DNA of 64,000 nucleotides from an uncultured Methanosarcinales archaeon. GTDB lineage: Archaea; Nanobdellota; Nanobdellia; Woesearchaeales; JAGVZT01. Below are positions 3,626-42,486 of this stretch, one piece after another. The translations under genes and the position numbers were made by a program. Positions within the stretch are counted from its first letter, which is position 1. Each line of letters begins with the position of its first letter. Location of the stretch: contig CAYQPU010000001.1 of NCBI GenBank assembly GCA_964419615.1, positions 1-64,000 on the forward strand. Direction: 5' to 3'. Below the pieces are notes generated by a model, which was not told the origin of the DNA, ran no database searches, and worked only from the letters and a program-made list of their open reading frames with translations.

Positions 3626-4375
3626 ATGGAAGAGAATAATGATTTAGCAAGTAGGATACTTAGAAAAATTGAACCACATTATAACAAAGCACTTGATGTT
3701 GCAGAAAAAGCAAGTGATGTTATTACTTATCCTTTGGATAAATGGTTTGACACAATGACAGGAACAGATAGTAGATTCGTCCCAGAAGTAGAGGAAACTT
3801 ACGGAGAGCTTAGACGTTATTGGGGTATGAGTAAAGATAAGGATATCGATGAACTTCATGGAAAAGTTAGAGAACAATTAGTCCAAAAGGGTTATACACA
3901 TCAACGTGTTGATAGTGATCTAGAATTATGGATGAATCATTTTGATCAGGATTCTCCAGAGTATTTTATGATTGATCCTTCTGGCAAGAGAGCCTATTAT
4001 GCAAGTCTGTCTGGTAAGTTTAATCACCCTGATGAAATTGTTGAAATGATGCAGGATTGCCTTGAAAGAAGTGATTCAGAATTTAATGGAGATGGCATAT
4101 TAGTATTAGGTTCATTATTTGCTTCAGCGGCTTTGACTTCCACAGGTTTTGTTTTACCATTTTTGATTGGTTGGGGAGCAACTGTTACAACTCAATTATG
4201 TGATGGTTATACAAAACTTCAGGAAAAGATGTTCACTGGTTTGTCGAATCTAAATGGTAAGGGATTGTATACAAAAAGACATAATGAGATTTACAACACA
4301 TTTGCACAAAGCAGTGATGCACTTTATCATTTGCTGCAGGTGCCTGATAAAGAGGTGATCTCAAATGCTGACTAG
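3626..4375 (+). CDS. hypothetical protein with hydrophobic hairpin, paralog family C
   Basis: SD gagg; aligns with 4365..5018. Confidence 0.8.
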   Translation: MEENNDLASRILRKIEPHYNKALDVAEKASDVITYPLDKWFDTMTGTDSRFVPEVEETYGELRRYWGMSKDKDIDELHGKVREQLVQKGYTHQRVDSDLELWMNHFDQDSPEYFMIDPSGKRAYYASLSGKFNHPDEIVEMMQDCLERSDSEFNGDGILVLGSLFASAALTSTGFVLPFLIGWGATVTTQLCDGYTKLQEKMFTGLSNLNGKGLYTKRHNEIYNTFAQSSDALYHLLQVPDKEVISNAD

Positions 4376-5018
4376 AATTATTGATAATTTTTTCCATGGT
4401 GATGCACGAAATGAAGCCTGGGATAGAGCTTTGGATCATATGAATGTTGAGTATGAAAAAAGGACCACAGCTTCTAAACCTGAATTCAGAAAAGAAGTTG
4501 TTAAAAAACTTGATGAAAAAGGTTTTGAAAAAGTTGAATCAAAAGGTTTTTATGAGTTTTGGAAAAATGACAATGAAGATTATTTTGTTATTAGAGATAG
4601 TGGCAAAAAAGGGAAATCAATATCATCTTATTATTTGGGTTTAGCATATGATGGAGAGATTGATGGTGCACAAATTATGGAGGATTGTATTTGCAGAGAG
4701 TATGTAGAGTTTTTGGCAGATGGATTTGGTATGATGGGTACTGCCTATATAGGTGCCACAATTGACAGTTATCTACCAGGTAATTCTGTTTTTTGGACTG
4801 GAATGGGAACCGCATTTGCTGCACAGTTTTTTGATTTATACACCTGGGCTGCAGAAGTTGGTTTTAATCTTTTATCTGAATGGACTGGTGAAGGGTATTA
4901 CACAGAGGAGCATAATGAGTTTTACAAAAACAATTTTTGTTCCGAGTCAGATGCAATTCATGAATTAACTCATATGAAAGAAGGAGGAACAAAAACAAAA
5001 CATGAGAAAATTATTTGA
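4365..5018 (+). CDS. hypothetical protein with hydrophobic hairpin, paralog family C
   Basis: SD gaggtg; G.G.YT..HNE.Y and SDA..L motifs shared with the previous ORF. Confidence 0.8.
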   Translation: MLTRIIDNFFHGDARNEAWDRALDHMNVEYEKRTTASKPEFRKEVVKKLDEKGFEKVESKGFYEFWKNDNEDYFVIRDSGKKGKSISSYYLGLAYDGEIDGAQIMEDCICREYVEFLADGFGMMGTAYIGATIDSYLPGNSVFWTGMGTAFAAQFFDLYTWAAEVGFNLLSEWTGEGYYTEEHNEFYKNNFCSESDAIHELTHMKEGGTKTKHEKII

Positions 5019-5646
5019 CAAGATGAAAAGAGCCAGACAAGGTGATACAATGCTTGAATGGATGAGTGATAAACATAATGGTTTATTCTGCCCATTTGTT
5101 TTGTATGATGCTTATCCGGATCTTGAACAGAGAACACAAAATTATCTTTTGTCTTGGATACAAGATGGAATGCAAAAAGTTAGAAGAGATGGAAATAGTG
5201 ATTTGGCAGATTTTGTTGAGCAGCAATCAATGATTGGAATTGATAATGTTGATCGCGATTATGGTCAGGTTTATTTCAAAGCAGGTTTTCTTGCTGCATA
5301 CCAAAATGTAAAACAAAGAATTGTGAAGCATCAAAAAAATATTCCTTTTGGTCCGCCAGACAGAAGTAAACCTCAGAGACATAAGGTGTTTTCAAAAGGT
5401 ATACCTAGACCATCTGCAGATGAGATTGAGAAAAGGGTTGACAAGGCTCACCGAGGAAGATTTCCATTTATGTATACTGCCAAAGGTGATGAAGCGTATT
5501 CCTATTTTTACAGAAACCAGCCACTAGATTTTGTTGCAAACCATATTGTTGATAATGGTTGGGATCCAGAGCAGGCTCGAGCTTTGGATGGTATGATGCT
5601 TGCTTATAGGACGCTGGGAGTTGTTGAATATGCACGAGGAAGATGA
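5002..5646 (+). CDS. hypothetical protein, paralog family B
   Basis: SD ggagg; YFKAGFLAAY and LDGMMLAYR motifs. Confidence 0.8.
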   Translation: MRKLFDKMKRARQGDTMLEWMSDKHNGLFCPFVLYDAYPDLEQRTQNYLLSWIQDGMQKVRRDGNSDLADFVEQQSMIGIDNVDRDYGQVYFKAGFLAAYQNVKQRIVKHQKNIPFGPPDRSKPQRHKVFSKGIPRPSADEIEKRVDKAHRGRFPFMYTAKGDEAYSYFYRNQPLDFVANHIVDNGWDPEQARALDGMMLAYRTLGVVEYARGR

Positions 5647-5672
5647 TAAATAAACATAAAAGGTGAAAGAAA

Positions 5673-6377
5673 ATGAAATTTAAAGAATTTGTAGAAAAAA
5701 CAAAAGAGAATTATGACATAGTTGAGGAACCAAAAGTATTGATGGTCATTGATGGTGGTGTAGAGAAGAGAGAAGGTACGGATCCATTGACACAGGTGCA
5801 AGAATCCATAAATGATATGCCTAAAGATTTAGCATCATTTGTAGTTGAGCAAGGAGATTATAGGAATCAGATTAATGGTGTGTCAAGTATGCCTGGAATT
5901 CTTGTTTCATGGAAAGCGTGGTTTGCAGGTGCTAGTATTGCATGGAATGTTTTAAAACAGACCTATGGAGCAGATATTGAAGTCAATCAAGAACATGTTG
6001 ACCAATATTTATTTTCACAACTGCAAACTCCATTAAAACAACTTGATTCAGACCAAGGTATTAGCGCGAGTGAGATGAGTGCAAATATGTATTTTGCAGA
6101 TAGAGATAAAGAAGGATTGGAAGCATTAACTGATGAAAAAGGAGTTTTTGGTCCATTTGATTTTGATCCAGTTGGTATAAAATCTGAGGATAGTAGAGTT
6201 ATTATTGGTGGTTATGCAGCTAGTAGCAGAGAAGATGGATTGGTCTTTAGAGTTTTTAAAGATACCAATAATGCTGAGTTGATTAATGGATACCTGGCTG
6301 TGATGAGAATTGCATATAATGCAATTGAAAGTGACATAATCAAAAATGAAGAATCAGCAGGACCAGTATTAGACTAG
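5673..6377 (+). CDS. hypothetical protein, paralog family B
   Basis: SD aggtga; WFAGASIAWNVLK and NGYLAVMR motifs. Confidence 0.8.
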   Translation: MKFKEFVEKTKENYDIVEEPKVLMVIDGGVEKREGTDPLTQVQESINDMPKDLASFVVEQGDYRNQINGVSSMPGILVSWKAWFAGASIAWNVLKQTYGADIEVNQEHVDQYLFSQLQTPLKQLDSDQGISASEMSANMYFADRDKEGLEALTDEKGVFGPFDFDPVGIKSEDSRVIIGGYAASSREDGLVFRVFKDTNNAELINGYLAVMRIAYNAIESDIIKNEESAGPVLD

Positions 6378-6396: not shown

Positions 6397-6548
6397 AGTT
6401 AGCCCCTTTGGGCCTGCTCGTTCGCCAGTTTGTTATCTGTGTTTGATATATTAATCTTGATTATATCCATGTTGACAAACTGTTCCTTTTTGTTTCTTAT
6501 CACAATCACTGGCTCACTCACATAAACCTGGCCAAAAAGGGGCCAACT
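6397..6548 (+). ncRNA. candidate structured ncRNA, copy 1 (family unknown; strand tentative)
   Basis: terminal stem GTTAGCCCCTTT/AAAGGGGCCAAC, inner stem CAGTTTGTTA/TGACAAACTG; homologous to 42254..42399 with compensatory changes. Confidence 0.55.
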
Positions 6549-6614
6549 TTCAATTTTTAACCAATATTTATTATTAATAACATTTATAAATAACCCCATG
6601 TTCCATGATAGTAT

Positions 6615-6719
6615 ATGAAGCGAAGCTCAAGACGTTGGAAGAAAAAAGGCCAAATGCGTTGGAAATGGCAGAGAAAACGAATGAACAAGTTAAAACAGAG
6701 ACGAAAGAAAAAGAAATAG
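6615..6719 (+). CDS. rpl41e: ribosomal protein L41e (eL41), 34 aa; below the ORF-track cutoff
   Basis: translates MKRSSRRWKKKGQMRWKWQRKRMNKLKQRRKKKK, matching the archaeal L41e pattern. Confidence 0.9.
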   Translation: MKRSSRRWKKKGQMRWKWQRKRMNKLKQRRKKKK

Positions 6720-7681
6720 ATTTATAAATGAGTTTTGCTTACCCATATACACGATTTCAAACCAGGGGTTTGAAGTCAAATCAACTCCATCTTACATAAT
6801 GAATACTTGATGATCAATTAAGTATGAAAGATATTTGTGAGTCTCAAGAATTAAGAAGCGACCGTCCAATATAAAAAAATACACTGGAGGGGTTATCTCA
6901 ATACATATGAGAAGGATTTTACCTCGCTATAAAAGTGCATTTTTTTGAACGAATTCCAGTTGATCCTGCTGGAGGCCGCTGCTATTGGGATCCGACTAAG
7001 CCATGCAAGTCCAGGGGTGCTTCGGCACACCGGCAAACTGCTCAGTAACACGTCGATAATCTGCCCTTGAGTCAGGGATAACCTTGGGAAACTGAGGCTA
7101 ATACTTGATAGGGGAATTCTACTGTAATGTGTTTTCCTTTAAAGATTACGCTCAAGGATGAGTTGGCGGTGGATTAGCTTGTTGGTGGGGTAATGGCCCA
7201 CCAAGGCGATGATCCATAGGGGCCTTGGAAGAGGTAGCCCCGAGAAGGACACTGAGATACTGGTCCTAGCCCCACGGGGTGCAGCAGGCGCGAAAACTTT
7301 ACACTACACGAAAGTGTGATAAGGGGATCCCAAGTGCCTATACTATGTATAGGCTTTTTCCAAGAGTAAAGACCTTGGAGAATAAGTGGTGGGAAAGACT
7401 GGTGCCAGCAGCCGCGGTAATACCAGCGCCACAAGTGGGGGCCATGTTTATTGGGCCTTAAGCGTTCGTAGCAGGTTGTATAAATCTCTTGTGAAATCGT
7501 TAGGCTTAACCTAACGGCGTGCAGGAGAGACTGTAAAACTAGAGACCGGGAGGAGTCAGAGGAATTCTTGGGGGAGCGGTAAAATGCTATAATCCCAGGA
7601 GGACCACCGGTGGCGAAGGCGTCTGACTAGAACGGGTCTGACTGTGAGGGACGAAAGCCAGGGGAGCAAACCGGATTAGAT

Positions 7682-7819
7682 CGACCTTTTGTAAACAAAA
7701 GCTCGACCAAAAACACTTAAGTGCGATATTTTACTTTGTAAAAATCGCACGAACTAATGTTTGCAACAATCTACATTTAGTGAAAGTGTGGTCAAATTAT
7801 GTACAAAAGTGTCCTAAAT
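7682..7819 (+). other. 138-nt ORF-less BHB intron in 16S (E. coli 793/794)
   Basis: splits GGATTAGAT|ACCC; central helix TTAG/CTAA with 3-nt bulges; basal stem GACCTTTTGTA/TACAAAAGTGTC. Confidence 0.85.
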
Positions 7820-7909
7820 ACCCGAGTAGTCCTGGCTGTAAACGCTGCGAGCAAGGTGTTGCATATTCCAACATGAATATGCAGTGTCGAAACGAAGGTG
7901 TTAAGCTCG

Positions 7910-7960
<51 letters not shown>

Positions 7961-8104
7961 CTCACTACAAGGGGTGCGGCGTGCGGTTTAATTGAACTCA
8001 ACACCGGAAATCTCACCAGGAGCGACGGCAGAATGAAGGTCAGTCTAAAGGGCTTACCTGACGAGCCGAGAGGTGGTGCATGGCCGTCGTCAGCTCGTGC
8101 CGTA

Positions 8105-8135
8105 ACTTTGAAGGTTTTAACATTCAAAGCGGTTA
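8105..8135 (+). other. 31-nt BHB mini-intron in 16S (E. coli ~1079/1080)
   Basis: splits GTGCCGTA|AGGTGTCC; helix GCCG/CGGT; bulges TAA/TAA; stem CTTTGAA/TTCAAAG. Confidence 0.85.
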
Positions 8136-8450
8136 AGGTGTCCTGTTAAGTCAGGCAACGAGCGAGACCTGCATCTACAATTGCTAACAGCTCTATCAGA
8201 GGACTGAGCACATTGTAGAGACTGCCTTGGAAACAAGGAGGAAGGTGCAGGCTACGGTAGGTCTGTATGCCCCGAATCCCCTGGGCTACACGCGCGCAAC
8301 AATGGTAAGGACAATGGGATGCAACTCCGAGAGGAGAAGCTAATCCTCGAAACCTTATCTTAGTCCAGATTGAGGGCTGCAACTCGCCCTCATGACGCCG
8401 GAATCCCTAGTAATCGGACGTCAACAGCGTCCGGTGAATACGTCCCTGAG

Positions 8451-8483
<33 letters not shown>

Positions 8484-8734
8484 TGGGTTTGAGTGAGGCC
8501 TAGCTTTTTAGCTATGTCGAACTCAGGCTCGATGAGGAGGGTTAAGTCGTCACAAGGTATCCGTAGGGGAACCTGCGGATGGATCACCTCCTTTTTTATT
8601 TAAGCAGGGACTCACAAATATCTCTTATACCACAAACTATATAAGAAACATATAGTTTAAACATATCACTTCTATCCCGCAGCGGGGGACAAGCGCTGAT
8701 TTTCATGTGATAATCATAATATTATCATGTTCAT

Positions 8735-8860
8735 GGGCCCGTAGCTCAGTTGGTAGAGCGTCGCCCTTGCATAGGGAGATTCTTCCAAAAGACAGGCGGA
8801 GGCCTCGGGTTCGAAAACGGGATCCAATTATGGAACCGGGTGAAAGCCCCGACGGGTCCA
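8735..8860 (+). tRNA. tRNA-Ala: tRNA-Ala(UGC) with two introns: 8772..8793 (37/38) and 8816..8846 (59/60)
   Basis: acceptor stem GGGCCCG/CGGGTCC, D arm GCTC/GAGC, anticodon TGC, T arm TCGGG-TTCGAAC-CCCGA after splicing; lies in the 16S-23S spacer. Confidence 0.92.
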
Positions 8861-10103
8861 TTTTCGATTACAGAAAATGACCCTCCGAACGAAAGTGAGG
8901 TTGGGTCAATTTCATATTCAATCACAATCATTTAATCAAAATGGTTTGGTTATCAGCAGAATACCAAACCTTCGGCTAAAACATCATGTTAATGCGGCCA
9001 TGCATAAGTTGGAAAGGCTAAGCTATTAGGTGGATGACTCGGCTCAAGAGCTGATGAAGGGCGTGACAAGCTACGATATGCTTTGGCGAGCCGCATGTAG
9101 GCATTGAACCAAAGATACCTCAATCAGACTTCTGCTTGAATCAGTAATGATGGGAAACGCAGGGAATTGAAACATCTTAGTACCTGCAGGAAAAGAAATT
9201 AATAAAGATGCTGCTAGTAACAGCGAGTGAAAGCAGCTTAAGGCAAACTGAATCCCTTTTTGAAAGAGAAGGGAGATGTGGTGTTATAAGACTACCTTTA
9301 AGCCCTATTCTGGCAACCTAAACTCTCCTGGAAAGGAGGACCATAGAGTGTGATAGTCACGTAAGGGTAACTGGGATGGGCCATGGTATGTTCTTGAGTA
9401 CCTTTCGCTGGAAACCGAGAGGGAATTTGGGAGGCATCAACTTCCAACCTTAAATACTACTTGAGTCCGATAGCAAACAAGTACTGTGAAGGAAAGTTGA
9501 AAAGAACCCCTAACAGGGAGTTAAAAGAACCTGAAACCTAATAGCGATCGTGTGGTACCGCTCTACGGAGTTGTACCGTTCGTTTCGAATAACGTGCCAG
9601 GGAGTGTATTTGTGTGGCAAGGATAATCTAAAAGAGGATCCAAAGCGAAAGCAACAAACCCGCAGCTTGCGAGGGGTGGGGTGTGAAAGCGCCCATAGTC
9701 ACATGGATACGATCTGAAGCTGGGCGATCTACGCTTGGGCAAGGTGAAGCCAGAGTAAAATTTGGTGGAGGCCTGAAAAGGTTCTATGGACAAGTGTTCT
9801 TCTGATCTGAGTGTAGGGGTAAAATGCTAATCGAGCCCAGCAATAGCAGGTTCCTGCCAAAGTTGGCTGTAGTCAAATCTCGGTGGAGATGGCTGAGGAG
9901 GTAGAGATACGGATTGAGAGTTTAGGCGTGGAGACACGTCGGCACTCTGTCCAACTCCGAATGCTTCAGCATCATAGATGCCGGGGGACGGGGGCGTGGG
10001 GTAAGCCCATGTCCCGAGAGGGGAACAACCCAGACTATAGTTAAGGTCCCAAAGTACTAGTTAAGTGTTAAAGGCTAAAGAGTGTTCATTTCCCAAGACA
10101 GCG

Positions 10104-10136
<33 letters not shown>

Positions 10137-10964
10137 AAGTGCGTAACAGCTTACTCGTCAAGGAAGTGGGCCTCGAAAATGGACGGGGCTAAACTAGTCA
10201 CCGATACTATAGAGTTTTGTAAAAAATTTGGTAGGCAGGCGTTCTGTTTGGATAGAAGTGTGTCTGCGAAGATGCATGGACCGGATAGAAATGAGGATCC
10301 TGGCGGTAGTAGGATCTGAGCAGCTTGAGAATAGCTGCCACCGTAAGGGCAAGGGTTCCTTGACAATGCAAATCAGTCAAGGGTAAGTTGGTCCTAACTG
10401 ACTTCATAACTAGAAGTAATGAGGAAAGGGAAACAGGTTAATATTCCTGTACTATTTAGGTATCCGGCGACGAAAGCCTTGTTTCTGACGCTTTTGGGTA
10501 AGTTATCACTGTTTGTCTGCAGTGTTAACCAGCATAAATCTGTGGAGTATCTTAATGATGAGAAACAGATTAAAGCTGGGATGAGCATCCTTCTGGGATG
10601 TATAGCTGATCCCTGGAGCCCGTGAAAAAGGAACAAGGATAAATTCTAAATAACCATACCCAGAACCGACACAGGTGCCCCTAGGTGAGAAGCCTAAGGT
10701 GTGAAGGGACAATCCAATTAAGGGAAATCGGCAAATTAGCCCCGTGTCTTCGGTGGAAGGGGTCCCTGCGATTGTGTTCGTATGAATGCGATTACAGGGC
10801 GCAGTGACAAGGGGGGTCCGACTGTTTAACAAAAACATAGCCAACTGCCAACCCGTAAGGGCTAGTATAGTTGGTGACGTCTGCCCACTACCAGTACTTT
10901 AAACTCCTTTACAAGGGAGCGAAGAGCTGGCAAAGGGCGGGAGTAACTATAACTCTCTTAAGGT

Positions 10965-11686
10965 GAAAATCGTTGCCTTATCAAAATCTAGCTATATGCT
11001 CGAATATCTGGTGTATCTCATGCTACCAGTGGACATATGTGCGTAAGACTTTTTAAGTTTGATCACATATGAAGACTGGTGAAAATGCAATGAGTGCAGA
11101 CAACGAGCAGGAAAGGCTAAATACAGATTGGGTTGTTGGATTCGTTGATGGTGAAGGATGCTTTCATGTTTCAATTAATAAAATTTCAAAGATGTCTTTG
11201 GGATGGCAAGTTCTTCCAGAATTTCGTGTTGTTCAACATGAAAAAGAAGTGAAGATTTTGTTACAATTACAAAGGTTTTTTGGAATGGGAATTGTTGTTA
11301 AAAATCATGGAAGCAGAAAAGAGCTAAGAATAAGAGGTCATAGTACTCTTAAAGAATTAGTTCGATTCTTCAATAAAAATCCACTGAGAACATCAAAACA
11401 AAAAGATTTTGAGATATTTGCTCAAATAATCAGTTTGATGGATCAAGGGAAGCATCTCACAAGAGATGGTTTGAAGAAAATTTCAATTCTTCGGTCAAAA
11501 ATGAACCGACAAGTTAAACCAAAGTATTTAGAATCCCCAGAGACTATACGCTAGACACATAATATTGTGTGAAGACATAGTCCGACCCACTAGGCGACTA
11601 GTGGAGGTGTGCAGAAATGTGCATCCACCATCATCAAGATGGTCAAAACCCTAACTGTATTTTATGGGTTTAAAGTAACAGATGTG
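10965..11686 (+). mobile_element. group I intron at 23S position 1931
   Basis: exon ends ...CTTAAGGT(U), P1 pairs AAGGT with GCCTT, intron ends in G before AGCGAAATACC; core-like GAGACTATACG and AAGACATAGTCC (P7). Confidence 0.9.
11069..11554 (+). CDS. single-motif LAGLIDADG homing endonuclease (intron-encoded; start may be 11090)
   Basis: WVVGFVDGEG motif; C-terminal ESPETIR reads through the intron core. Confidence 0.92.
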   Translation: MKTGENAMSADNEQERLNTDWVVGFVDGEGCFHVSINKISKMSLGWQVLPEFRVVQHEKEVKILLQLQRFFGMGIVVKNHGSRKELRIRGHSTLKELVRFFNKNPLRTSKQKDFEIFAQIISLMDQGKHLTRDGLKKISILRSKMNRQVKPKYLESPETIR

Positions 11687-12223
11687 AGCGAAATACCTTG
11701 TCGTTTGAATGACGACGTGCATGAATGACGTAACGAGATCCCCACTGTCCCTAATTGGAACCCTCTGAACACTCTATTCTGGTGCAGAAGCCAGAGATTT
11801 CCAGTGGGAAGTGAAGACCCCGTGAAACTTTACTGTAGCCTGTTGCTGTGATGCGGATGTTGTTGTATAGTGTAGGTGGGAGTTGCTAAAACTTGAGTCG
11901 AAAGACGAGAGATCAGACGACAATGTAACACCACTCTTCATAATTTGCATTGCTTACTCGAAAGAGGACACCAATTGGCAGACAGTTTGGCTGGGGTGGC
12001 ACGCTGCTGAAATAATATCAGCAGCGCCCAAAGGTTGACTCAACGCGGTCGGAAATCGCGTGTGGAGTGCAAGGGCATAAGTCAGCCTGAATGGATTCTC
12101 ACTAAGACAGATTCCAGCAAAGAAATTTTGGCCTAGCGAACCTCTATGTCCTCCTTGATGGGGGCTAGAGATGACCGAAAAGTTACTCCGGGGATAACAG
12201 AGTTGTCTCCCCCGAGCGTTCAC

Positions 12224-12260
12224 AGTTGCTTGCGGCTATTGGTCGCAAGCGACCGAACAG
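12224..12260 (+). other. 37-nt BHB mini-intron in 23S helix 89 loop (E. coli 2477/2478)
   Basis: splits GTTCAC|AGCGACGG; helix GTTC/GAAC; 10-bp hairpin GCTTGCGGCT/GGTCGCAAGC. Confidence 0.85.
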
Positions 12261-12651
12261 AGCGACGGGGAGGCTTGCTACATCGATGTCGGCTCTTCCT
12301 ATCCTGGTGGTGCAGAAGCCACCAAGGGTGGGGGTGTTCACCCATTAAAAGGGATCGTGAGCTGGGTTCACAACGTTGCGAGACAGTTGGTTTAATATCT
12401 ACTGGAAATGTAAAATGTCTGAGAGGAAGGATGTCAAAGTACGAGAGGAACTGGCATTCGAGGCCTCTGGTCTACCGGTTGTCTGACAAGGCAGGCCGGG
12501 CAGCTACGCCTTAGAGGATAAGAGCTGAAAGCATCTAAGCTCGAAACCTCCCCCGAAAATAGACATTTATAGAACTCCTGCAGAACACAGGTTTGATGGA
12601 GCTGGGGTGTAAGTACCAAGGTAACGAGGTATTCAGCCCGCAGCCACCAAA

Positions 12652-12755
12652 AGTTCTTACTCAACTATGCATGGTTTTTTCATTTTTTTTTCTATTTCAT
12701 TTCAACATAAACAATATTGGTATAGTGTAAGCTATGTTGTTATGATTAGTACAAT
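12652..12755 (+). repeat. ~100-nt imperfect direct repeat, copy 1 (23S trailer)
   Basis: exact 23-mer AGTTCTTACTCAACTATGCATGG at 12652 and 13744, followed by degenerate similarity to ATTAGTACAA. Confidence 0.85.
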
Positions 12756-40873: not shown

Positions 40874-41941
40874 ATGGGGATGTTTGATGGAATGCTTGGA
40901 TCTGATGAAACTTTGTTTAAGAATCCTGTTGCTCTTGATTATGATTATCTTCCAAAAATATTACCTTATAGAGAGGGTGAACAGCGAAAAATTGCTGCTT
41001 GTGTAAAACCTCTGTTTAATAGAAGGAATGGTCGTAACTTGATTATTTTTGGTAAGTCTGGTGTTGGTAAGACTGCTGCTTGCAAGCATGTTTTAGTGGA
41101 ATTAGAAGAGCAAACAGATGAGATTGTCCCTATTCATGTTAATTGCTGGCAAAAAAATACTTCTTATAAGATTCTTACAGAGATGTGTGAGGAGTTAGGT
41201 TATAGGTTGACACATAACAAGAAAACTGATGAGCTGCTAAAAGTTGTGGTTACTATGCTTAACAAAAGTTCAGCTGTGCTTGTGTTTGATGAGATTGATA
41301 AGGTTGAGGATTATGATTTTTTGTATAATTTTTTAGAAAGTCTTTATAGAAAGAGTGTTGTTTTAATTACAAATCACAAAGAGTGGTATAATGAGCTTGA
41401 TTCTAGGATCAAATCGAGGTTAGTCCCAGAGATGCTTGAGTTCAAGCCTTATAACGTTGAGGAGACTGGAGGGATTTTAAAGCAGAGAATTGTGCATGGT
41501 TTTCAAGAAGGTGTTTTTGGGTCAGATTCAATTAGTTTGGTTACTAAAAAAACCCATGAGATGCAGGATATTAGATCTGGTTTGTATTTGTTAAAAGAAG
41601 CTGCTAATATTGCTGAGGAAAAAGCTTGCCGAAAGGTTGATATTGAACATGTTAAGATTGCTGTTGGTAAGTTAGATGAGTTTAAGATCAAGGATAGCGG
41701 GGATTTAGATGAAGAGACTCAGAATATTTTAAAGATTATTAAGAATAATTCTGGTAAAAAGATTGGAGATTTGTTTAAGGTTTATCAAGAGGATGGTGGG
41801 AGTTTAGTGTACAAGTCTTTTCAAAGAAAGGTAAAAAAGCTTGAGAAAGGTAAGTATATTTCGGTTTTAACAAAGACAGGTGGAAAAGAAGGAACAACTT
41901 CTATTTTGAGTTATAGTGATAAGAAGTTGACTGATTTTTAA
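40874..41941 (+). CDS. cdc6: Orc1/Cdc6 replication initiator
   Basis: LPYREGE, GKSGVGKT, VNCW, FDEID, C-terminal winged helix. Confidence 0.93.
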   Translation: MGMFDGMLGSDETLFKNPVALDYDYLPKILPYREGEQRKIAACVKPLFNRRNGRNLIIFGKSGVGKTAACKHVLVELEEQTDEIVPIHVNCWQKNTSYKILTEMCEELGYRLTHNKKTDELLKVVVTMLNKSSAVLVFDEIDKVEDYDFLYNFLESLYRKSVVLITNHKEWYNELDSRIKSRLVPEMLEFKPYNVEETGGILKQRIVHGFQEGVFGSDSISLVTKKTHEMQDIRSGLYLLKEAANIAEEKACRKVDIEHVKIAVGKLDEFKIKDSGDLDEETQNILKIIKNNSGKKIGDLFKVYQEDGGSLVYKSFQRKVKKLEKGKYISVLTKTGGKEGTTSILSYSDKKLTDF

Positions 41942-42210: not shown

Positions 42211-42253
42211 TACTTTCTTTGTTTGTGATATTGATATAAATAGATTTTGTTAC

Positions 42254-42399
42254 TTAGTCCCACCTGGCCAGTTCGTGAGCCAGTTTGCTAGCTGCCAAAC
42301 AAAGTGAGTTCAAGTGTTTTCTACAAATGGCAAACTGTTCCTTACCCTGTCTGATGACGATCTAAGTCTCTCTCTCTTTCTTGGCCTTGCTGGGACTAA
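42254..42399 (+). ncRNA. candidate structured ncRNA, copy 2
   Basis: terminal stem TTAGTCCCA/TGGGACTAA, inner stem CAGTTTGCTA/TGGCAAACTG; shares CAAACTGTTCCTT with copy 1. Confidence 0.55.
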
Positions 42400-42486
42400 T
42401 TTTTACAACTAACACACTGGACACTGGACATTGTGATGTGAGGTATTTAAACAAATTTGTCTGATCTACTCCCTGAGGTGATGTTA

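What the first reader, a model, noticed from the sequence alone, without database searches (positions are those of the whole stretch)
6397..6548. Unrecognised ~150-nt structured RNA present twice, with compensatory changes
Seen: this element and 42254..42399 share the order TTAG(C/T)CCC, GGCC, GCCAGTTTG, variable loop, CAAACTGTTCCTT, variable region, GGCC, GGG(G/A)C(C/T)AA. Both stems covary: outer C-G vs T-A and inner T-A vs C-G. The same U.G wobble appears on the + strand of both copies. Loops are unrelated, which argues against a recent MITE copy. I could not match RNase P, SRP, 5S, C/D box, hammerhead or HDV consensus. This copy follows the orphan array and precedes rpl41e and the rRNA promoter. 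Inference: a conserved ncRNA family or ssDNA structure, possibly undescribed.
Basis: partly seen in the sequence, partly recalled or inferred. Interest (0 to 1): 0.75.

Follow-up and report, generated by a model that had tools for sequence, protein, structure and literature searches.

The report
Worn MITE copies with folded core
The two look-alike 150-base folded elements are real. They are two of 25 old copies of a small non-coding jumping-DNA family (a MITE) in a Woesearchaeota genome, not a new RNA gene, so the finding is fairly ordinary apart from how well every copy keeps its fold.

Summary
Window 6397-6548 and 42254-42399 share the same helices, with compensatory changes, and have no Rfam match.

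They are not a two-copy RNA.
- The genome holds 25 diverged copies, all intergenic and with no orientation bias.
- The sister species (Ca. Woesearchaeota SuakinDeep_MAG79_5) holds about 28. Many of those are young, with 12-nt terminal inverted repeats (GGCAAAGTCAAC) and perfect 9-bp target-site duplications. Their sites are empty in this genome.
- The copy B site is empty in the sister species.
- Near the copy A site the sister carries an independent insertion flanked by duplications.
- More distant relatives in two other families of the order share the end motif GTCAACTTAA. A 9-bp duplication was seen at one of them.

G.U pairs are not favoured over A.C in the stems, so no transcribed strand is indicated. 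No RNA data exist.

One oddity remains. In this genome the duplications and outer repeats are gone and the loop is randomised, yet the stems are 92-97% paired and the core blocks are 90-96% identical.

No transposase with matching ends was found.

Earlier agents of this scan reached the same MITE reading on other pieces of this genome.

The parts
6397..6548 (+). Copy A of the element (whole body, from the outer stem's 5' arm to its 3' arm)
   Evidence: Covariance model hit of 136.9 bits; alignment A2.
6397..6409 (+). Copy A, outer stem P1, 5' arm (pairs with 6536-6548)
   Evidence: RNAalifold and pair counts: 13 pairs, all with compensatory changes across the 24 copies.
6411..6414 (+). Copy A, P2 GGCC (pairs with GGCC at 6530-6533)
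   Evidence: Three of the four pairs are invariant and one has 2 compensatory A-U. Mean pairwise identity is 0.96.
6420..6425 (+). Copy A, candidate P4 5' arm (pairs with 6512-6517)
   Evidence: Four of six pairs covary with no one-sided changes. The two middle pairs form in only 9 of 24 copies.
6426..6482 (+). Copy A, hairpin P3: stem 6426-6434 / 6474-6482, variable loop 6435-6473
   Evidence: The stem is 97% paired with 0.90 identity. The loop has 0.37 identity, near the flank baseline of 0.32.
6536..6548 (+). Copy A, outer stem P1, 3' arm
42254..42399 (+). Copy B of the element: P1 42254-42264 / 42389-42399; P2 42266-42269 / 42383-42386; P4 42275-42280 / 42367-42372; P3 42281-42289 / 42329-42337
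   Evidence: Covariance model hit of 130.9 bits. The orthologous spacer in the sister species lacks the element, and homology resumes within 2 nt of the 5' end of P1.
6583..6590 (+). TATA-like box TTTATAAA of the rpl41e-like ORF, about 35 nt beyond copy A. It is not part of the element but marks the spacer it sits in.
   Evidence: The same promoter is conserved in the sister species, about 10 nt beyond that species' own independent insertion.
42235..42242 (-). TATA-like box upstream of the divergent acylphosphatase gene, 12 nt from the 5' end of copy B. It marks the spacer and is not part of the element.

Best explanation
Both elements are old, immobile copies of a non-autonomous DNA transposon (a MITE) that is confined to a few lineages of one Woesearchaeota order.

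Shown:
- The family is dispersed, non-coding and intergenic.
- Young members in the sister species carry terminal inverted repeats and 9-bp target-site duplications, and their sites are empty in this genome.
- A relative in another family of the order has the same end motif (GTCAACTTAA) and a 9-bp duplication.

Inferred: a DDE-type transposase supplied in trans binds the ends, makes a 9-bp staggered cut and pastes the element into the short free spacers next to promoters. An IS1-family enzyme is the best lead, but it is not matched by its ends.

The 'RNA helices' are the element's long sub-terminal inverted repeat (P1 and P2) plus an internal inverted repeat (P3) and a weaker P4. Their complementarity is a requirement of the element itself. 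It is kept in the lineages that go on transposing, so each new copy starts with matched arms but with its own arm and loop sequence.

In this genome no intact ends, no duplications and no IS1 gene remain, so the 25 copies are fossils wedged between promoters.

It is unresolved why their core has stayed so intact in place.
For: - 25 copies were found by nhmmer and the covariance model. All are intergenic. They lie at least about 45 nt from gene starts, may abut gene ends, and show no orientation bias. TATA-like boxes lie 8-41 nt beyond most ends.
- The model finds the family only in G000 and same-genus G001 among 40 relatives. In a 150-genome sample of the order it also finds G150 (8 copies) and G122 (1 copy).
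- G001 copies carry GGCAAAGTCAAC ends and perfect 9-bp duplications: CTATAACTT, CTTTGTAGG, TTATTGAGA, AAAGTTCTC, TGTAAAATA and ACATATCAA. For the five tested against G000, the sites are empty there.
- The G150 copies have ends containing TTGTCAACTTAAG, and copy L124 has the duplication CCGATTCGA.
- The copy B site is empty in G001.
- Excluding the closing pair of P3, G.U versus A.C counts in the stems are 19:16 in G000 and 11:27 in G001, so no strand is favoured.
- There is no Rfam hit.
- An IS1 InsB-like ORF (PF03400, 70.5 bits) is present in G001 and was not found in G000.
- MITEs with stable folds, decaying direct repeats and even compensatory changes are documented. Examples are bcr1 (about 155 bp) and Chunjie (9-bp direct repeats) in PMC3184786 and the review PMC10969869.
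Against: - The two window copies, and all G000 copies, have no inverted repeat beyond P1 and no target-site duplication above chance. Their mobility is inferred from homology and from presence/absence between species.
- No transposase gene with matching ends was found. The IS1-like genes in G001 and in four other genomes of the order lack GTCAACTTAA nearby. The DDE_Tnp_1 remnants also do not match.
- Simple neutral decay does not explain the pattern. The flanks and the loop are randomised (identity 0.32 and 0.37), yet P2 and P3 are 0.96 and 0.90 identical and the stems are 92-97% paired.
- Several insertions in the two species share the same spacer but differ in subfamily or orientation. This needs hot spots or some other process.
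Confidence: 0.8

Rival explanations
1. It is an exapted MITE. The copies began as transposon insertions, but the folded core is now kept in place by selection for a host-level role. The role could be a structured RNA made by read-through or from the adjacent, nearly symmetric TATA boxes, or a protein-binding DNA platform or insulator between divergent promoters.
For: - Core blocks and stems are far better kept than the loop and flanks.
- 18 alignment columns are invariant in 24 copies although duplications are undetectable.
- The same architecture (P2, P3 with CAGTTT.../...AAACTGTTCC, and P4 with an internal mismatch) recurs in G150, which belongs to another family.
- 11 of 25 copies sit between divergent genes, and TATA-like boxes lie 8-41 nt beyond most ends.
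Against: - There is no G.U-over-A.C bias and no strand or orientation preference.
- The distribution is patchy and lineage-restricted, and sites are empty in the sister species.
- Conservation of the core across young, still TSD-flanked copies fits a requirement of the element itself.
- No expression data exist.
Confidence: 0.12
2. It is a true multi-copy ncRNA gene family. On this view there are 25 paralogous genes for a small RNA of about 150 nt with a variable loop, and the transposon-like copies in the sister species are a secondary capture.
For: - Multi-helix covariation is well above the shuffled and slid controls.
- Folding z-scores range from -2.8 to -4.2.
- The variable loop within a constant scaffold resembles guide-type RNAs.
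Against: - No promoter lies at a fixed distance and orientation is random.
- There is no G.U bias and no Rfam family.
- The family was not found in 6 other genera of the same family of organisms.
- Inverted-repeat ends accompany the core in two distant lineages, so the ends look ancestral and not captured.
- No 'empty' inverted-repeat pair without the core was seen in G001.
Confidence: 0.05
3. It is a single-strand-DNA hairpin element moved by a Y1/HUH transposase, of the IS200/IS605 PATE or REPIN kind. That would explain the lack of outer inverted repeats and duplications in this genome, and covariation without an RNA strand bias.
For: - G000 copies have no ends beyond P1 and no duplications.
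- A Y1_Tnp gene exists in G000 (C57, 115 bits) and in G150.
- Stems would covary in a folded ssDNA intermediate.
Against: - The Y1 gene is single-copy and its flanks share nothing with the element.
- G001, which has the youngest copies, has no Y1_Tnp hit.
- Young copies have inverted repeats and 9-bp duplications, which Y1 elements do not make.
- No conserved target tetranucleotide lies 5' of the copies.
Confidence: 0.03

Closest known systems
Prokaryotic MITEs with hairpin-forming bodies, e.g. Chunjie of Geobacter (178-235 bp, 21-bp TIRs, 9-bp direct repeats) and QMITE2 of Coxiella (PMC3184786, PMC10969869)
   Same: Small, AT-rich, non-coding, multi-copy and intergenic. It has terminal inverted repeats, 9-bp direct repeats in young copies, a stable predicted fold, and direct repeats that fade with age.
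   Different: The outer repeats and duplications are lost in this genome's copies. The body is a conserved multi-helix junction, not one long hairpin. It comes from a DPANN archaeon, and no partner IS has been identified.
bcr1 repeat of the Bacillus cereus group (about 155 bp; Klevan 2007 and Kristoffersen 2011, as summarised in PMC3184786)
   Same: About 155 bp, with a genomic distribution that is not conserved between relatives. Base-pair compensatory changes keep a cruciform-like fold.
   Different: bcr1 has 5-bp direct repeats, is shown to be transcribed, and is bacterial. Here transcription is untested and the stems show no RNA-type G.U bias.
Archaeal MITEs of Sulfolobus, Halobacterium and Haloquadratum (listed in PMC10969869)
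   Same: Non-autonomous elements in archaeal intergenic DNA, thought to be mobilised in trans by IS transposases.
   Different: There is no sequence relation. This family is restricted to a few Woesearchaeota lineages and has a strongly conserved internal core.
IS1 family insertion sequences. That IS1 makes 8-9 bp duplications is established knowledge recalled from memory, so it is a lead and not a test.
   Same: A 9-bp duplication. An IS1 InsB-like gene is present in the species with young copies and was not found in the species with only worn copies.
   Different: No IS1 copy examined has ends matching GGCAAAGTCAAC or GTCAACTTAA. G150 has MITE copies but no PF03400 hit.

Membership tests
MITE (miniature inverted-repeat transposable element) | Small (under about 500 bp) and non-coding | tested here: met
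   The copies are about 150-160 nt. Single-base indels between copies and stop codons in the loop rule out a conserved ORF.
MITE (miniature inverted-repeat transposable element) | Many dispersed copies, mostly intergenic | tested here: met
   There are 25 copies on 20 contigs, all intergenic, about 28 in G001 and 8 in G150.
MITE (miniature inverted-repeat transposable element) | Terminal inverted repeats | tested here: inconclusive
   Relatives meet this: GGCAAAGTCAAC in G001 and TTGTCAACTTAAG in G150. In the window copies the termini are the P1 arms, whose first 6 nt (GTTAGC) are conserved, and there is no further inverted repeat beyond them.
MITE (miniature inverted-repeat transposable element) | Target-site duplication flanking the element | tested here: inconclusive
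   Perfect 9-bp duplications flank six G001 copies and one G150 copy. The 25 G000 copies, including both window copies, show none above chance.
MITE (miniature inverted-repeat transposable element) | Presence/absence at orthologous sites in relatives | tested here: met
   Five G001 copies have empty sites in G000. The copy B site is empty in G001.
MITE (miniature inverted-repeat transposable element) | A cognate autonomous IS with the same ends | tested here: not met
   None was found in G000, G001, G150 or four other genomes that carry IS1 genes.
Structured ncRNA gene family (Rfam-type) | Conserved secondary structure with covariation | tested here: met
   22 of 36 pairs show double changes, and 0 of 500 shuffles reach the observed scores. 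The slid controls give 29-47% paired against 84.7% observed.
Structured ncRNA gene family (Rfam-type) | Strand signature: G.U tolerated far more than A.C | tested here: not met
   The counts are 19:16 in G000 and 11:27 in G001, excluding the closing T.G of P3. The minus strand folds at least as well as the plus strand.
Structured ncRNA gene family (Rfam-type) | Same loci kept across related taxa | tested here: not met
   The family was not found in 6 other genera of the same family of organisms. Most G001 sites are empty in G000. Shared spacers hold different subfamilies or orientations.
Structured ncRNA gene family (Rfam-type) | A discrete transcript | not testable with these tools
   No RNA run holds the sequence.
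IS200/IS605-type ssDNA elements (PATE / REPIN) | No TIR or TSD, sub-terminal hairpins, a fixed target tetranucleotide, and a Y1 transposase sharing the ends | tested here: not met
   Young relatives have inverted repeats and 9-bp duplications. No conserved 5' target motif is present. The single Y1 gene of G000 shares nothing with the element.

The most novel reading that the evidence does not exclude
The conserved four-helix core is a working module, not just transposon baggage. It would be a structured RNA or a protein-binding DNA platform carried around by a MITE and then held in place by selection at about 25 promoter-proximal spacers in a 1.5-Mb DPANN genome. That would explain why the stems and core blocks survive after the ends, the duplications and the loop have been erased.
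Probability: 0.13. Interest if true: 0.6.

Novelty: new member of a known kind. Interest (0 to 1): 0.3.

Why it matters
As a MITE it mainly matters for annotation. It explains about 25 'orphan structured RNA' calls in this genome and gives a covariance model to mask them.

It also documents mobile-element activity and insertion hot spots next to promoters in very small DPANN genomes, where little is known about transposons.

The one point of wider interest is evolutionary. Old copies that have lost every hallmark of mobility still keep their pairing and core sequence. This makes a clean case for asking whether MITE folds are kept by selection on the element, by the host, or by a DNA-level correction process.

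Tried and rejected
- **Known RNA families.** Rfam at gathering and at permissive thresholds gave only chance snoRNA-level hits with E about 5. ARAGORN found no tRNA.
- **Shapes judged by eye.** I considered tRNA with an intron, 5S, RNase P, SRP, C/D-box or K-turn RNAs, hammerhead (CUGAUGA occurs in copy B only), a bulge-helix-bulge intron, and an integron attC site (the inverted core motifs are in the wrong order and there is no array). I dropped all of them on the alignment of 24 copies.
- **A small peptide.** Copy A holds a hydrophobic 31-aa ORF. This was rejected because indels between copies are not multiples of three and the loops carry stops.
- **TnpB omega-RNA.** The only hit was a sub-threshold Zn-ribbon match elsewhere.
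- **Y1/IS200 link.** The gene is present but unrelated to the element.
- **IS256.** No hit.
- **DDE_Tnp_1 remnants.** Their ends do not match.
- **IS1 partner.** The gene is present in G001 only, but no ends match there or in four other genomes.
- **Pattern scans.** Scans of genome contigs and metagenome contigs gave only G001 as a real hit. The other hits are at the chance level and fail the model.
- **Expression.** No RNA holder was listed.
- **DNA contigs.** Contigs of four DNA runs were laid on copy A. They cover it, and no contig joins across it. This says nothing about expression.

Full report
**Observation.** In copy A the helices are:
- P1: 6397-6409 with 6536-6548
- P2: GGCC 6411-6414 with GGCC 6530-6533
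- P3: a 9-bp hairpin stem, 6426-6434 with 6474-6482, around a 39-nt loop
- P4 (weaker): 6420-6425 with 6512-6517

Copy B has the same plan at 42254-42399. Both strands of both copies fold better than shuffles, with z from -2.8 to -4.2, and the minus strand folds at least as well as the plus strand. Rfam has no match at its gathering scores or at E up to 10, and ARAGORN finds nothing.

**Copy number.** A BLAST of copy A against the window's own genome (1.48 Mb, 64 contigs, 99% complete) gave many weak hits. A profile built from them finds 25 copies on 20 contigs. They are about 70% alike, with a loop that cannot be aligned.

On an alignment of 24 full copies (A2):
- All 13 pairs of P1, one pair of P2, three pairs of P3 and four of six pairs of P4 show changes on both sides.
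- 84.7% of cells pair, against 29-47% when partners are slid by 1-3 columns.
- None of 500 shuffles reaches the observed scores.

**Context.** All 25 copies are intergenic in a genome that is about 90% coding.
- Eleven lie between divergent genes.
- Five lie between same-direction genes in the sense orientation.
- Seven lie between same-direction genes in the antisense orientation.
- At most two lie between convergent genes.

Ends lie at least about 45 nt from a start codon but can lie 4-20 nt from a stop codon. TATA-like boxes sit 8-41 nt beyond most ends. There is no orientation preference and no conserved upstream sequence. This is the pattern of an insertion that is tolerated wherever it does not break a promoter. 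It is not the pattern of a gene with its own promoter or of a leader for a particular class of gene.

**Distribution and mobility.** A covariance model (R1) searched over 40 relatives hits only this genome and the one other species of the genus, G001. It finds nothing in six other genera of the family or in 33 other families. G001 is Candidatus Woesearchaeota archaeon SuakinDeep_MAG79_5.

The G001 copies fall into subfamilies.
- The largest is young and about 184 nt long. It has the ends GGCAAAGTCAAC...GTTGACTTTGCC outside the P1 stem.
- Perfect 9-bp direct repeats flank these copies: CTATAACTT, CTTTGTAGG, TTATTGAGA, AAAGTTCTC and TGTAAAATA.
- A second subfamily has related ends (GAGTCAAGTTTGATG).
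- Five of ten G001 insertions tested have an empty site in this genome.

The two window copies were tested directly.
- **Copy B.** The spacer between the acylphosphatase and Sua5/YrdC genes lacks the element in G001, and homology resumes within 2 nt of the 5' end of P1.
- **Copy A.** G001 carries an independent copy with terminal repeats and the perfect duplication ACATATCAA. It ends about 10 nt upstream of the same rpl41e-like promoter, whereas copy A ends about 35 nt from it.

A wider sample of 150 genomes of the order adds eight copies in G150 (a different family) and one in the GC-rich G122. The G150 copies have ends containing TTGTCAACTTAAG, which share GTCAACTTAA with G001. One has the 9-bp duplication CCGATTCGA. 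They keep the same inner plan: GCC/GGC, CAGTTTTC...GAAAACTGTTCC, and a P4-like helix with an internal mismatch.

Exact-pattern scans of the species-genome and metagenome collections gave only G001 as a real hit.

**RNA or DNA.** In a functional RNA, G.U pairs are tolerated and A.C pairs are not. I left out the closing T.G of P3, which is a fixed trait of the family present in 28 of 46 copies. The stems then hold 19 G.U against 16 A.C in this genome and 11 against 27 in G001. Together with the equal folding of both strands and the random orientation, nothing points to one transcribed strand. No RNA sequencing run holds the sequence, so expression is untested. DNA contigs from four marine metagenome runs cover copy A, and no contig joins across it.

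**The unexplained point.** In this genome the sequences beyond P1 are not inverted repeats of each other (score 5.7 against 5.9 for mismatched controls), and there is no 9-bp direct repeat above chance. Only one copy (contig 9) keeps a recognisable GGAAAAGTCAAC.

Mean pairwise identity between copies is uneven:

| Region | Identity |
|---|---|
| Flanks | 0.32 |
| P3 loop | 0.37 |
| P1 | 0.57 |
| P4 3' arm plus TCAC | 0.81 |
| P3 stem | 0.90 |
| P2 | 0.96 |

P1 and P2 are 92% paired, and P3 is 97% paired. If loss of the duplications means roughly 0.2 or more substitutions per site since insertion, which is my rough estimate, neutral decay would leave about 70% of pairs intact and almost no invariant columns. 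Eighteen columns are in fact invariant.

Among young G001 copies that still have duplications, differences are also concentrated in the loop, the distal part of P1 and the linker, and they spare the core. The simplest reading is that the core is needed by the element itself and is selected in the lineages that keep transposing. That does not fully explain retention in copies that look old.

Three alternatives remain open:
- selection in place on a host-level role;
- a DNA-level arm-to-arm correction, which would fit the lack of G.U bias;
- a way of spreading that leaves no duplication.

**Hot spots.** At least seven G001 copies lie in the same spacer as a G000 copy, where about 0.5 would be expected by chance on my rough count of spacers. 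Several of these pairs differ in subfamily, and two are in the opposite orientation. So insertion is regionally targeted, or old copies are replaced.

**Enzyme.**
- G001 has an IS1-family InsB-like ORF of 171 aa (PF03400, 70.5 bits). This genome has no hit. That matches young copies in one species and worn copies in the other.
- IS1 elements make 8-9 bp duplications. This is established knowledge that I recalled from memory and did not test.
- Against this, no end matching the MITE lies near that gene or near IS1 genes in four other genomes of the order, and G150 has MITE copies but no PF03400 hit.
- DDE_Tnp_1 remnants in both species do not match either. IS256 gave no hit.
- A single IS200-type Y1 transposase in this genome shares nothing with the element and has no hit in G001.
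- Close InsB homologues are common on 1-kb metagenome contigs.

The partner is therefore not identified.

**Comparison with known elements.** Reviews describe prokaryotic MITEs as AT-rich, intergenic and stably folding, with direct repeats that fade with time. They list archaeal examples (PMC10969869). Chunjie has 9-bp direct repeats, and the 155-bp bcr1 repeat keeps a cruciform-like fold through compensatory changes (PMC3184786). The present family is a new member of that kind, in DPANN archaea.

**Earlier work in this scan.** After I had reached the MITE reading, I consulted the notebook of earlier findings. Several earlier agents had filed other copies of this family in the same genome as worn MITE copies with a folded core. 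One earlier agent preferred a small RNA.

New here are:
- the G.U versus A.C test;
- the relatives in two other families with a shared end motif;
- the empty site for copy B;
- the independent insertion near the copy A site;
- the region-by-region conservation figures.

**Verdict.** The ncRNA-family reading is only partly supported. The element is a fossil MITE and a new member of a known kind, of modest interest.

Noticed in passing
window 6953-8592, 8735-8860, 9003-12670: The rRNA operon is oversized. SSU spans 1640 nt against a 1478-position model and LSU spans 3668 nt against 2987, so both probably hold insertions or introns. The spacer tRNA hit is 126 nt long (Rfam 47.8 bits) and ARAGORN does not find it, so it probably carries an intron.
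   Followed up: no
L073:270-743 (G001:C48) and L077 (G001:C50, about 82150-82510): There are longer variants of the MITE in the sister species. A 474-bp form has about 320 bp inserted after CTCTTACGAT and is present in at least 6 copies, mostly at contig ends. Another form has about 170 nt inserted in the P3 loop. These may be nested elements or cargo.
   Followed up: partly
G000 versus G001 spacers: C12:36667, C42:8865, C19:796, C24:16707, C7:35315, C22:14403, window 6394: The same intergenic spacers are occupied in both species, often by different subfamilies or in opposite orientation. This points to insertion hot spots next to promoters, or to replacement of old copies.
   Followed up: partly
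window 42416-42431: The tandem CACTGGA CACTGGA just downstream of copy B is identical in the sister species, within an otherwise diverged spacer upstream of a conserved TATTTAAAC box. It may be a regulatory site.
   Followed up: no
window 6615-6719: A K/R-rich 34-aa ORF (rpl41e-like) has no Pfam hit, but it and its TTTATAAA box are conserved in the sister species.
   Followed up: partly
window 4365-6377: Three consecutive ORFs of 217, 214 and 234 aa lie just upstream of copy A. The second and third were scanned and have no Pfam match, and the three share short repeats. No repeat array was found.
   Followed up: partly
G000:C57:973-1428: A single IS200/IS605-type Y1 transposase gene (PF01797, 115 bits) is flanked by short GC-rich hairpins. 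A fragment also lies at the end of contig 2. Both are unrelated to the MITE.
   Followed up: partly
L117:1396-1908 (G001:C10): An IS1 InsB-like ORF stands without a recognisable InsA part or inverted ends. It may be a remnant or a domesticated gene.
   Followed up: partly
window 40874-41941: An Orc1/Cdc6 gene lies about 300 nt upstream of copy B, with an acylphosphatase gene between them. I did not examine whether a replication origin lies nearby.
   Followed up: no
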